Of a DNA stretch of 64,000 bases, positions 54,734-55,561 are shown piece after piece. Below the pieces are notes generated by a model that was given only the letters and a program-made list of their open reading frames with translations, had not been told where the DNA came from and did not search any database. The translations under genes were made by a program, and so were the position numbers. Position 1 is the first letter of the stretch; the number at the start of each line of letters is the position of its first letter. The DNA comes from a virus: positions 14,190-78,189 of IMG/VR virus record IMGVR_UViG_3300035698_014118; one strand, given 5' to 3'.

Positions 54734-54757
54734 GCCGGTGTGGCGGAATTGGCATAC
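54734..54757 (+). pseudogene. 5' half of a disrupted tRNA-Leu
   Basis: GCCGGTG-TGGCGGAATTGGCATAC; pairs with the 3' half at 55537-55561. Confidence 0.75.
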
Positions 54758-54800
54758 AATATTATTAAGGAAGTATGACTTTTCTGTTGAAGAAATAGAT

Positions 54801-55538
54801 ATGAGAACATTACAAGAAAAAGAACAGATATTACGTCTTAAAGCATTGGGATGGAATAATTGTAAAATAGCAAGAGAAGTTGATATACCACGAGGCACCA
54901 TTCGTGATATATGTAAAAAATACAAAGCCGGTGTATCCCAATTGGCAGAGGAGACCGATTCAAGCTCGGTTTGTTGGAGGTTCGATTCCTCTCACCGGTA
55001 TTATTATTACTATCTCCTTGGAATATACCTTGGAGATGGATGTATAAGTCAAGACAGAAGATGTCTTAAACTACGAATATTTCTGGACAAAAAATATCCT
55101 GTCATAATAGACGAAGTTAAAAAAGCAATTAACGTAGTAATGCCTAAAAATAAAGTTGGTATTCTTGATAAACATACTTTTGTAGAAATATATTGTTTTT
55201 CTAAGTTTTGGGATTGTGTTTTCCCTCAACATGGCAAAGGCAAGAAGCATTTGAGAAAAATCAAATTGACAAATTTACAAACTAGAAACATGGATGATAA
55301 GGCGATACTCAGGGGGTTGATTCATTCTGACGGATGTAGAGATTTGAATTGGGTAAATAAAATAAGTTATCCACGATACAGTTTAAGTAATCTATCTTCT
55401 GATATACATGAGATATTTCAAAAATCTTGCAGGAAATTAAATATAAACTACACAACAAATAGTACAGGTAACTGTACTTGGATTGCGAAGCGAAAAGATG
55501 TCAAGTTAATGGATGAATTTATAGGTTCAAAAAAATGA
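54801..55538 (+). CDS. HTH plus LAGLIDADG-like endonuclease with an in-frame embedded tRNA
   Basis: KIAREVDIPRGTIRD; LLGIYLGDGCI; ILRGLIHSDGCR. Confidence 0.8.
   Translation: MRTLQEKEQILRLKALGWNNCKIAREVDIPRGTIRDICKKYKAGVSQLAEETDSSSVCWRFDSSHRYYYYYLLGIYLGDGCISQDRRCLKLRIFLDKKYPVIIDEVKKAINVVMPKNKVGILDKHTFVEIYCFSKFWDCVFPQHGKGKKHLRKIKLTNLQTRNMDDKAILRGLIHSDGCRDLNWVNKISYPRYSLSNLSSDIHEIFQKSCRKLNINYTTNSTGNCTWIAKRKDVKLMDEFIGSKK
54927..55000 (+). tRNA. tRNA-Leu(CAA), short variable arm, inside a CDS
   Basis: GCCGGTG/CACCGGT-A; ACCGA-TTCAAGC-TCGGT; GGAGG-TTCGATT-CCTCT. Confidence 0.85.
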
Positions 55539-55561
55539 GGGTTCGATTCCCTCCACCGGTA
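55537..55561 (+). pseudogene. 3' half (T arm and acceptor) of the disrupted tRNA-Leu
   Basis: GAGGG-TTCGATT-CCCTC-CACCGGT-A. Confidence 0.75.

What the first reader, a model, noticed from the sequence alone, without database searches (positions are those of the whole stretch)
54734..55561. Endonuclease gene splits a tRNA-Leu and encodes a complete replacement tRNA in frame inside itself
Seen: a 5' tRNA half (54734-54757) and the matching 3' half (55537-55561; acceptor GCCGGTG/CACCGGT) bracket an HTH-LAGLIDADG-like ORF whose TGA overlaps the T-stem. Inside the ORF, an intact tRNA-Leu(CAA) (54927-55000) with the same acceptor stem is translated as the interdomain linker AGVSQLAEETDSSSVCWRFDSSHR. 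Inference: dual-coding makes the selfish gene undeletable, and tRNA maturation destroys the nuclease mRNA, giving built-in self-limitation.
Basis: partly seen in the sequence, partly recalled or inferred. Interest (0 to 1): 0.86.

Follow-up and report, generated by a model that had tools for sequence, protein, structure and literature searches.

The report
Homing endonuclease carrying in-frame spare tRNA
A selfish DNA-cutting gene has replaced the middle of a phage leucine-tRNA gene and carries a complete substitute leucine tRNA written in frame inside its own coding sequence, a conserved layout that I did not find described in the papers searched.

Summary
Window 54801-55538 is an intact 245-codon HTH + double-motif LAGLIDADG endonuclease gene. 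Codons 43-67 are also a 74-nt cloverleaf tRNA(CAA) on the same strand (Rfam 51 bits).

The flanks (54734-57, 55537-61) are the two ends of a class II tRNA-Leu(CAA) gene. A salt-lake metagenome contig carries an uninterrupted form of such a gene, with 36 nt in place of the 780-nt insert. Independent contigs bridge every junction, so this is not a misassembly.

The in-frame tRNA is conserved. It occurs in 6 DNA loci from phages and from Rokubacteria and similar bacteria, and 22 homologous proteins carry the tRNA-derived linker peptide. All 120 stem positions pair, 10 of 20 pairs show compensatory changes, and the peptide itself drifts.

In one Rokubacteria genome the embedded copy is the only tRNA(UAA) found. 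About 95% of 178 homologue loci abut a tRNA-Leu gene.

Best reading: the endonuclease homes into the D arm of class II tRNA-Leu genes and brings a probably cleavage-resistant, short-arm replacement tRNA.

Earlier notes of this scan report endonuclease/replacement-tRNA-Leu cassettes on other DNA, but not this in-frame form.

The parts
54734..54757 (+). 5' remnant of a class II tRNA-Leu(CAA) gene: acceptor GCCGGTG, U8/G9, D-stem 5' strand GCG, D loop, and the first base of the D-stem 3' strand. It ends ...GGCATAC|.
   Evidence: Sequence. The 18-nt D-arm string is identical to the phage's class II tRNA-Leu(AAG) at 56971-88 and occurs 3 times against 0 expected. It is 21/22 identical to the 5' end of an uninterrupted tRNA-Leu(CAA) contig in run X1. 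The breakpoint matches L004 and L012 and L003 and L040.
54758..54800 (+). A+T-rich 43-nt leader of the inserted cassette, between the old-tRNA breakpoint and the ATG.
   Evidence: Homology to the uninterrupted tRNA stops after 54757.
54801..55538 (+). Endonuclease ORF, 245 codons plus TGA: HTH domain (residues 1-42), tRNA-encoded linker (43-67) and double-motif LAGLIDADG core (68-245) with both catalytic Asp (LGD79G, HSD177G).
   Evidence: all family-invariant residues present. AF2 gives pLDDT 93.1. Foldseek finds I-AniI, I-Tsp061I, I-DmoI and I-SceI with E down to 3.6e-8.
54927..55000 (+). Embedded 74-nt tRNA-Leu(CAA) of the short-variable-loop type: A73, 3-bp D stem, same acceptor stem as the outer remnants. 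Its first base is codon position 1 of codon 43.
   Evidence: ARAGORN. Rfam 51.3 bits. Covariation among 6 embedded copies: 100% of cells paired, 10/20 pairs compensatory, 0/500 shuffles reach this. It aligns with 43 other short tRNA-Leu. It coincides with the only low-pLDDT stretch of the protein model.
55537..55561 (+). 3' remnant of the same class II tRNA-Leu(CAA): T arm GAGGG/CCCTC, acceptor 3' strand CACCGGT and discriminator A. Homology to the uninterrupted form starts at 55535, so the endonuclease stop TGA (55536-38) lies in old tRNA sequence.
   Evidence: (T-arm hit).

Best explanation
This is a homing-endonuclease cassette that has invaded a class II tRNA-Leu(CAA) gene in the tRNA array of a large salt-lake phage. 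It carries its own substitute tRNA.

The 779-nt insert (54758-55536) replaced the D-stem 3' strand, the anticodon arm and most of the variable arm of the old tRNA. The old 5' and 3' ends remain as dead remnants. The insert encodes one protein: an N-terminal HTH DNA-binding domain joined to a monomeric two-motif LAGLIDADG nuclease. The 25 codons that join them are at the same time, on the same strand, a complete 74-nt tRNA-Leu(CAA) of an unusual short-variable-loop type.

Shown here: the anatomy; the intact nuclease motifs and fold; the uninterrupted form of the outer tRNA and its CAA anticodon; conservation of the in-frame tRNA across distant hosts with compensatory base-pair changes; and the near-universal linkage of the protein family to tRNA-Leu genes.

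Inferred:
(a) The nuclease cuts intact class II tRNA-Leu genes at the D-arm/anticodon-stem junction (...GGYAGAC|GCG...), and double-strand-break repair copies the cassette in.
(b) The embedded tRNA is matured, charged by LeuRS (A73, tRNA-Leu-like D arm) and decodes UUG, so the insertion costs the carrier nothing.
(c) The embedded tRNA escapes cleavage because its D stem and anticodon stem differ at the site: 7 of 23 positions around the breakpoint, mostly on the right half.
(d) RNase P and 3' processing that release the tRNA would cut the mRNA between the two protein domains. Any one transcript would then yield either tRNA or nuclease, which would keep nuclease levels low.
For: Anatomy.

Nuclease intact: all 23 columns invariant across 88 family members are present, including D79 and D177. 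The AF2 model has pLDDT 93 and the best Foldseek hits are LAGLIDADG enzymes.

Old gene identified: X1 contig record 4 joins 54754 to 55535 with 36 nt in between. ARAGORN folds the joined form into a canonical 84-nt class II tRNA-Leu(CAA), the same anticodon as the embedded tRNA.

Not an artefact: junction-bridging contigs come from 4 runs.

Conservation of the embedded tRNA:
- It is embedded at frame offset 0 in the window, L012, L038, L040 and L060, and embedded in L100.
- 22 proteins carry the tRNA-derived linker peptide V.Q.AE...F[ED]S, and several of them are representatives of separate 50%-identity clusters.
- All 120 stem cells pair, 10/20 pairs have changes on both sides, 0/500 shuffles reach this, and slid controls pair only 32-54%.
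- Variable columns show no third-codon-position bias (9/12/14), and the peptide is the only low-confidence part of the model. The RNA, not the peptide, is what selection holds.

Evidence for tRNA function:
- In Rokubacteria genome G002 (6.1 Mb, 43 tRNA hits) the only tRNA(UAA) found by pattern is the embedded one. It sits at the end of a Gly-Cys-Leu tRNA gene cluster.
- In the complete Streptomyces genome G001, the only CAA-anticodon tRNA found is a free-standing member of the same short tRNA family.
- A73 is invariant in 44 of 44 short tRNA-Leu.

Evidence for targeting:
- About 95% of 178 homologue loci have a tRNA-Leu within roughly 100-200 nt.
- The 5' remnants end at the same base in L001, L003, L004, L012 and L040, and L038 has a decayed version.
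- L038 keeps the outer tRNA-Leu(UAA) from the D-stem 3' strand onward, and its inner anticodon is also UAA.
- In the L004 phage array, class II Leu UAA, CAG, UAG and AAG are intact, and the CAA slot is occupied by a 5' remnant + endonuclease + short Leu(CAA).
- A second locus in this window repeats the logic with an HNH nuclease: a 5' remnant at 51172-51199, an HNH ORF at 51254-51736 and a short tRNA-Leu(UAA) at 51727-51799.

Selfish-element behaviour: the distribution in 41 Streptomyces genomes is patchy. The endonuclease is present in 28, and broken or fragmentary in 4 of those.
Against: - No cleavage, aminoacylation or RNA data exist for any family member.
- The uninterrupted tRNA contig (X1 record 4) is only 178 nt with 22-25-nt sides, and its downstream flank differs from the window. 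It proves the identity of the old gene. It does not prove an empty allele at this locus.
- The phage's own class II tRNA-Leu(AAG) at 56965 carries nearly the same sequence across the presumed cut site (GGCATACGCGCA, against GGCAGACGCGCA in the uninterrupted CAA tRNA). Immunity must then rest on one base or on the anticodon stem, or the site is defined differently.
- Most bacterial family members lie beside an intact tRNA-Leu, not inside one. The D-arm target therefore holds only for the phage and embedded clade.
- A bacterial tRNA-Leu without the long variable arm is unorthodox.
- G002 is a MAG of unstated completeness, so 'only copy found' is provisional.
- An X1 variant has ATG changed to ATA at the start codon, so some copies of the nuclease may be decaying.
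- In L022 the outer remnant looks like Leu(AAG), while the inner anticodon inferred from the P0003 peptide would be CNG. Anticodon matching may therefore not be universal.
Confidence: 0.72

Rival explanations
1. The tRNA is functional but the nuclease is a fossil. The endonuclease no longer homes here, being decaying or domesticated. Its reading frame persists only because the useful tRNA sits inside it and because the remnant is young.
For: An X1 population variant has lost the ATG (54803 G>A). LAGLIDADG_3 scores just under Pfam's cut-off (20.5 against 22.5). Homing endonucleases typically decay after fixation, and broken copies are seen in Streptomyces. Half-genes occur in L101, L103, P0012 and P0136.
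Against: The window copy keeps every invariant residue of 88 homologues, including both catalytic Asp. It has no stop or frameshift over 245 codons and folds with pLDDT 93. The full-length frame is kept in all six DNA loci with an embedded tRNA.
Confidence: 0.14
2. The cloverleaf is conserved but is not a decoding tRNA. It would be a tRNA-like RNA element inside the mRNA (an RNase P entry site, a stability or translation regulator, or a ligand of the protein itself). Alternatively it is kept at the DNA level as internal homology that lets the cassette recombine with any tRNA-Leu gene.
For: It lacks the long variable arm that defines bacterial tRNA-Leu. LAGLIDADG-only remnants behind an intact class II tRNA (L101, L103) look like products of crossovers inside tRNA homology. 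The inner and outer acceptor stems are identical in the window, as gene conversion would produce.
Against: The anticodon loop, U33, A73, T loop and D loop are all canonical, and anticodons are always Leu (CAA or UAA). It is the only UAA tRNA found in G002. Free-standing members of the same short tRNA family are the only CAA tRNA found in a complete Streptomyces genome. DNA homology alone would not demand compensatory changes in all four stems.
Confidence: 0.1
3. The insert is an intron (group I, group II or bulge-helix-bulge) of the outer tRNA. The outer tRNA would be restored by splicing, making the inner tRNA incidental.
For: LAGLIDADG genes are classically intron-borne. tRNA-Leu genes of bacteria host group I introns. 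L038 keeps most of the outer tRNA.
Against: No intron family matches 53500-57500 even at E <= 1. Only 43 nt of the insert lie outside the ORF, which leaves no room for a ribozyme. In the window the outer anticodon arm is absent, so no splicing could rebuild a tRNA.
Confidence: 0.02
4. Assembly chimera at the repeated acceptor and T-arm sequences.
For: There are two 11-nt repeats (AGCCGGTGT... and GGTTCGATTCC...ACCGGTATTAT) within 830 nt.
Against: Contigs from four runs of four studies cross each junction with 0-1 differences. The same architecture occurs in five other loci from unrelated samples.
Confidence: 0.01

Closest known systems
Mobile endonuclease ORFs (mORFs) of fungal mitochondria that bring a replacement gene end (Allomyces atp6; Glomus atp6, atp9, cox2, nad3; PMC3630166, read)
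   Same: A LAGLIDADG or GIY-YIG endonuclease ORF inserts into a host gene. It carries a foreign copy of the displaced part, and the native part is left downstream as an unexpressed remnant. The function of the invaded gene is preserved without an intron or intein.
   Different: In mORFs the rescue is a C-terminal coding segment placed in front of the ORF. Here the rescue is a whole RNA gene written inside the endonuclease's own reading frame (dual coding), in phages and bacteria, and it is of a different structural class from the gene it replaces.
Free-standing homing endonucleases in phage tRNA clusters, e.g. T4 SegB (PMC2330249, listed; abstract only)
   Same: A phage endonuclease gene among tRNA genes. 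It is thought to promote its own inheritance, and that of flanking tRNA genes, in mixed infection.
   Different: SegB is GIY-YIG and lies between tRNA genes. It does not disrupt a tRNA and contains none.
Monomeric two-motif LAGLIDADG enzymes I-DmoI, I-Tsp061I, I-AniI and I-SceI
   Same: Fold and catalytic motifs.
   Different: Those enzymes are intron-encoded and lack the N-terminal HTH domain. Sequence identity is 14-18%.
LAGLIDADG genes in ribozyme-less insertion sequences of CPR rRNA genes (PMC11270868, listed; abstract only)
   Same: A LAGLIDADG endonuclease inserted in a structural-RNA gene.
   Different: The target is rRNA, and no replacement gene is carried.
Integrating phages and islands that target tRNA genes and restore the 3' end (my own knowledge, not tested here)
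   Same: A tRNA gene is used as the landing site and tRNA function is preserved by sequence carried on the element.
   Different: Those elements use integrases and duplicate only the attachment segment. No nuclease is involved and there is no dual coding.
Synthetic Cleave-and-Rescue (ClvR) gene drives (my own knowledge)
   Same: The logic is a nuclease that destroys a needed gene, plus a tightly linked, recoded, cleavage-resistant copy of that gene.
   Different: ClvR is engineered, Cas9-based and eukaryotic. Here the equivalent would be natural, and the rescue would be overprinted on the nuclease gene. Resistance of the rescue copy is inferred here, not shown.

Membership tests
LAGLIDADG homing endonuclease (monomeric, two-motif; Pfam PF14528) | Two LAGLIDADG helices, each ending in a catalytic acidic residue | tested here: met
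   YLLGIYLGD79G and ILRGLIHSD177G. Both columns are invariant in 88 homologues.
LAGLIDADG homing endonuclease (monomeric, two-motif; Pfam PF14528) | Pseudo-dimeric alpha-beta-beta-alpha-beta-beta-alpha fold | tested here: met
   The AF2 model has pLDDT 93.1. Foldseek against the PDB gives I-AniI 3.6e-8, I-Tsp061I 2.8e-7 (TM 0.53/0.62) and I-DmoI 7e-7.
LAGLIDADG homing endonuclease (monomeric, two-motif; Pfam PF14528) | Score above Pfam's curated cut-off | tested here: inconclusive
   The window protein scores 20.5 bits against a cut-off of 22.5. Homologue L004 scores 32.0.
LAGLIDADG homing endonuclease (monomeric, two-motif; Pfam PF14528) | Site-specific double-strand cleavage of a long target, and homing | not testable with these tools
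   Only indirect evidence: a shared insertion point in 5-6 loci and a patchy distribution with decayed copies.
tRNA (Rfam RF00005) | Cloverleaf scoring above the gathering threshold, with canonical T loop, D loop and U33 | tested here: met
   51.3 bits against 29. ARAGORN also calls it. Covariation supports all four stems.
Bacterial tRNA-Leu (class II) | Leu anticodon and discriminator A73 | tested here: met
   Anticodon CAA and A73. A73 is invariant in 44 short tRNA-Leu.
Bacterial tRNA-Leu (class II) | Long variable arm (stem-loop of 10 nt or more) | tested here: not met
   The variable loop is 5 nt (UUGUU). It is therefore not a class II tRNA. It belongs to a separate family of 74-79-nt Leu-anticodon tRNAs seen in phages, Actinomycetota and Rokubacteria.
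Bacterial tRNA-Leu (class II) | Charged with leucine by LeuRS | not testable with these tools
   Indirect only: it is the only UAA or CAA tRNA found in G002 and G001.
Self-splicing or BHB intron in a tRNA gene | Ribozyme core or splice motif, and exons that rebuild a tRNA | tested here: not met
   No intron family matches at E <= 1. Only 43 nt of the insert are non-coding. The outer anticodon arm is absent.
mORF-type element (endonuclease plus replacement of the displaced gene part) | An endonuclease ORF inside a host gene, a carried substitute for the displaced sequence, and a native remnant left behind | tested here: met
   Remnants at 54734-57 and 55537-61, and a substitute tRNA with the same anticodon. 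The form differs, since a whole gene is embedded in the ORF, so this is 'works like' rather than membership.

The most novel reading that the evidence does not exclude
A natural 'cleave-and-rescue' drive. The nuclease would destroy conventional class II tRNA-Leu genes, and its cleavage-immune rescue tRNA is overprinted on the nuclease's own interdomain linker. The two could then not be separated by recombination, and each transcript would become either nuclease mRNA or tRNA. Over evolutionary time, this and related cassettes (LAGLIDADG and HNH) would be what spreads the unorthodox short-arm tRNA-Leu through phage tRNA arrays and bacterial chromosomes (Rokubacteria, Streptomyces, Micromonospora), replacing the class II form.
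Probability: 0.35. Interest if true: 0.95.

Novelty: new variant of a known kind. Interest (0 to 1): 0.85.

Why it matters
Homing endonucleases are thought to survive inside essential genes by hiding in self-splicing introns or inteins. The rarer alternative is to bring a spare gene end, as mORFs do. This locus shows a third route carried to an extreme: a whole replacement RNA gene is written in frame within the nuclease gene.

If the tRNA is matured, it would be a clear prokaryotic case of one DNA strand encoding both a functional tRNA and part of a protein in the same register. It would also provide a built-in competition between RNA processing and translation that could be measured.

The locus also points to a widespread family of tRNA-Leu-specific endonucleases that I did not find described in the papers searched. 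It further points to leucine tRNAs without the long variable arm that appear to be the only CAA or UAA decoder found in some bacteria. That bears on LeuRS identity rules.

Finally, it offers compact tRNA-gene-specific meganucleases with a natural immunity allele as tools.

Tried and rejected
- GenBank phage collection: blastn and tblastn with the locus or the protein gave no match.
- A single-protein scan of IMG/VR found nothing. An alignment query was needed.
- An IMG/VR DNA pattern (T loop followed within 10-40 nt by the Y.YLLG.YLGDG codons) gave 0 hits. The window's own record is excluded from that scan, and L012 has a variant T loop.
The DNA behind P0001-P0008, P0012 and P0124 onward could therefore not be fetched. 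Their embedded tRNAs are inferred from the linker peptide only, except P0003 (3' part seen in L022) and P0044 (= L040).
- No RNA holder was listed for the locus, so nothing can be said about expression or processing.
- The intron reading was rejected.
- The misassembly reading was rejected.
- Seven of the eight literature searches looked for a description of this arrangement: tRNA embedded in or dual-coded with an endonuclease gene, LAGLIDADG beside tRNA-Leu, and tRNA-Leu lacking the long arm in Actinobacteria. None found such a description. The Mtb LeuRS paper read did not bear on short tRNA-Leu.
- A FastTree phylogeny could not decide whether the embedded state arose once: 3 changes are needed, and 1 is not excluded by well-supported branches. 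The linkers of the non-embedded phage relatives show no decayed tRNA peptide.
- One script call was lost.
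Full report
**Observation**

The window is part of a 78-kb IMG/VR virus record estimated at 17% complete. It carries 21 tRNA genes between 43 and 63 kb.

- ARAGORN places a 74-nt tRNA with anticodon CAA at 54927-55000. Rfam's tRNA model scores it 51.3 bits against a gathering score of 29.
- The tRNA lies inside an open frame, 54738-55538. The real start is almost certainly ATG 54801, which aligns with the MRT... start of the homologues.
- The product matches HTH_23 and LAGLIDADG_3.
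- The tRNA's first base is a first codon position. The tRNA reads as AGVSQLAEETDSSSVCWRFDSSHR.
- The 18-nt D-arm string of the 5' piece occurs three times in the window against 0.00 expected. The 26-nt pattern shared by the 3' piece and the inner tRNA's 3' end occurs twice against 0.00 expected.

**What the flanks are**

I laid Logan contigs from four salt-lake metagenome runs, from four studies, on 54300-55900. This gave two results.

First, contigs bridge every junction with 0-1 differences. X1 record 3 runs from 54528 through the 5' piece, the HTH part and the inner tRNA to 55191. X1 record 6, X2 records 10 and 11, and X3 record 16 cross the 3' piece. The locus is therefore not an assembly chimera.

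Second, X1 record 4 joins 54754 to 55535 with 36 other letters in between. ARAGORN folds that joined form into a canonical 84-nt class II tRNA-Leu with anticodon CAA: acceptor GCCGGTG/CACCGGT, a 3-bp D stem, a 15-nt variable arm and A73.

The flanks are thus the ends of a class II tRNA-Leu(CAA) gene. About 33 nt of it have been replaced by a 779-nt insert: the D-stem 3' strand, the anticodon arm and most of the variable arm. The replaced tRNA had the same anticodon as the tRNA inside the insert.

One caution applies. Record 4 is short, its matching sides are 22-25 nt, and its downstream flank differs from the window. It shows what the old gene was. It does not show that an empty allele exists at this very locus.

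**The protein**

A search of 5.8 billion proteins found more than 900 homologues of about 250 aa with the same HTH + LAGLIDADG architecture. The window protein keeps all 23 columns that are invariant across 88 of them, including both catalytic aspartates.

The AlphaFold model has a mean pLDDT of 93.1. Its only low-confidence stretch, roughly residues 41-62, coincides with the tRNA-encoded residues 43-67. Foldseek returns I-AniI, I-Tsp061I, I-DmoI and I-SceI. No intron family matches the region even at E <= 1, and only 43 nt of the insert are non-coding.

**Comparative evidence**

I fetched 178 homologue loci from IMG/VR, JGI metagenomes and GTDB genomes.

- About 95% of them have a tRNA-Leu gene within roughly 100-200 nt of the endonuclease gene, on either side and strand. 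Hosts include Streptomyces, Micromonospora, Mycobacterium, Chloroflexota and Rokubacteria. This is a tRNA-Leu-specific endonuclease family.
- In six loci the tRNA lies inside the ORF at the domain junction: the window, L012 and L040 (A+T-rich, tRNA-rich contigs), L038 and L060 (about 65% G+C), and L100 (a Rokubacteria MAG). Frame offset 0 was verified for the first five. L100's embedded tRNA was placed by ARAGORN.
- 22 proteins show the tRNA-derived linker peptide, and several of them are representatives of separate 50%-identity clusters.
- More distant homologues have a Cys-rich linker or another linker instead.
- On the six embedded tRNAs, all 120 stem cells are standard pairs and 10 of 20 pairs have changes on both sides. 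No shuffle of 500 reaches any of the measures, and slid registers pair only 32-54%.
- Variable columns are spread 9/12/14 over the three codon positions. The cloverleaf is constrained and the peptide is not.
- An internal start codon after or within the tRNA is not conserved (the sequences are). Read-through of the tRNA is therefore the only conserved way to make the nuclease domain.

**A family of short tRNA-Leu**

The embedded tRNAs belong to a homologous set of 74-79-nt tRNAs. They have Leu anticodons (CAA, UAA, UAG, CAG), a GTAGCCCAA..GGCAGAGGC D arm, a 5-nt variable loop and an invariant A73. In the 44-sequence alignment, 17 of 19 predicted pairs covary.

These tRNAs travel with the endonuclease in three arrangements:
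- embedded in the ORF;
- just downstream (L004, L009);
- 30-135 nt upstream (about 35 actinobacterial loci).

The evidence that they function is indirect:
- In Rokubacteria genome G002 the embedded copy is the only UAA-anticodon tRNA that a loop-plus-T-loop pattern finds. It occupies the last place of a Gly-Cys-Leu tRNA cluster.
- In the complete Streptomyces genome G001 the only CAA tRNA found is the short one.
- Within 41 Streptomyces genomes, the short tRNA (found in 21) and the endonuclease (found in 28, with 4 broken or fragmentary) occur in all four combinations.

**The target**

The 5' remnants of class II tRNA-Leu end at the same base (...GGYAGAC|) in front of the endonuclease in the window, L003, L004, L012 and L040. 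L038 has a decayed version.

L038 still has the outer tRNA-Leu(UAA) from the D-stem 3' strand onward, and its inner tRNA is also UAA. L022 keeps the outer tRNA from the anticodon loop onward.

The L004 phage array holds intact class II Leu UAA, CAG, UAG and AAG genes. The CAA position holds a 5' remnant, the endonuclease and a short Leu(CAA).

A second locus in this very window repeats the pattern with a different nuclease. It has a class II 5' remnant at 51172-51199, an HNH ORF at 51254-51736, and a short tRNA-Leu(UAA) at 51727-51799. The first 10 nt of that tRNA hold the ORF's last codons and its stop.

**Mechanism**

Shown:
- a nuclease gene with intact motifs sits in a gutted class II tRNA-Leu(CAA) gene;
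- a selected cloverleaf with the same anticodon forms its linker codons.

Inferred:
- The enzyme cuts class II tRNA-Leu genes at the D-arm/anticodon-stem junction and is copied in by break repair.
- The embedded tRNA differs from the uninterrupted target at 7 of 23 positions around the breakpoint, mostly on the right side (my comparison of the sequences), and so escapes cutting.
- The embedded tRNA is matured and charged, which would make the invasion free of cost.
- Processing of the tRNA splits the mRNA, which would limit nuclease output.

The LAGLIDADG-only remnants directly behind intact class II tRNA-Leu(UAA) genes in L101 and L103 fit crossovers within tRNA homology. So does the identity of the inner and outer acceptor stems in the window.

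**What does not fit yet**

- The phage's own class II tRNA-Leu(AAG) at 56965 has GGCATACGCGCA across the presumed site. The uninterrupted CAA tRNA has GGCAGACGCGCA, and the 5' remnant also has the T. Whether that base confers immunity is open.
- Most bacterial members lie beside an intact tRNA-Leu rather than within one, so their target must differ.
- The outer and inferred inner anticodons of L022/P0003 may not match.
- An X1 variant has lost the start codon.

**Comparison with what is known**

The closest described logic is the mORF of fungal mitochondria, an endonuclease ORF that brings a replacement gene end (PMC3630166). Phage free-standing endonucleases among tRNA genes are also known (T4 SegB, PMC2330249, listed). 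So are LAGLIDADG genes in ribozyme-less insertions of CPR rRNA genes (PMC11270868, listed).

Seven literature searches found no description of a tRNA gene embedded in frame in an endonuclease gene, of this tRNA-Leu-linked family, or of the short tRNA-Leu.

Earlier notes of this scan report endonuclease cassettes with a replacement tRNA-Leu on other DNA, mainly Patescibacteria. None reports the in-frame linker form.

**Limits**

- There are no RNA or biochemical data.
- G002 is a MAG of unstated completeness.
- The tree is a FastTree with composition-biased rows.

Noticed in passing
window 51172-51799: A second cassette with the same logic but a different nuclease. It has a class II tRNA-Leu 5' remnant (GGCTCTGTGGCGGAATTGGCATACGCG...), a 160-aa HNH-type ORF (51254-51736; HNH_3 E 4.3e-5), and a short 73-nt tRNA-Leu(UAA) at 51727-51799. 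The first 10 nt of that tRNA contain the ORF's last three codons and its stop TAG.
   Followed up: partly
window 57690-57765 and 59662-59735: Two more short-type tRNA-Leu (both UAG, 76 and 74 nt) with the same GTAGCCCAA..GGCAGAGGC D arm. Only the AAG isoacceptor (56965-57048) of this phage stretch is class II. The mini-gene after 57765 starts with the same TATTATGAAA as the one after 55561.
   Followed up: no
window 54803: The run X1 contig has G>A here, which turns the endonuclease start ATG into ATA (depth 4.87, one contig). This may be the start of decay in part of the population, or an alternative start may be used.
   Followed up: no
window 54751-54757 versus 56982-56993: The 5' remnant and the phage's intact tRNA-Leu(AAG) both read GGCATAC, whereas the uninterrupted tRNA-Leu(CAA) in X1 reads GGCAGAC. 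This could be an immunity substitution at the presumed cut site, or gene conversion between the two.
   Followed up: no
window 63636-63815: A weak group II intron domain-5-like hit (RF04356, 24 bits, E 0.004) lies at 63636-63694. About 60 nt later comes a tRNA-like 3' part (...GGGTTCGATTCCCAGTAGCGG) that neither ARAGORN nor Rfam calls as a tRNA.
   Followed up: no
Streptomyces genomes G001, G005-G044; loci L116-L178: Within one genus, the tRNA-Leu(CAA) next to the endonuclease is either class II (84 nt) or the short 74-76-nt form. The short tRNA was found in 21 of 41 genomes and the endonuclease in 28 of 41, in all four combinations. Complete genome G001 has only the short form. Micromonospora G004 has both a short and a class II CAA tRNA.
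   Followed up: partly
L101:2774-3432 and L103:2943-3546: In Methylomirabilota and Rokubacteria relatives, the Gly-Cys-Leu(UAA, class II) cluster is followed directly by a LAGLIDADG-only remnant with no HTH part. In L103 the frame opens at the tRNA's own anticodon TAA. These look like partial conversion products.
   Followed up: partly
L040:3321-4203: A 121-kb groundwater contig has a run of six tRNA-Leu genes. Four free-standing ones are of the short type (CAG, UAG, UAA, CAA), and the embedded one is a second UAA copy.
   Followed up: no
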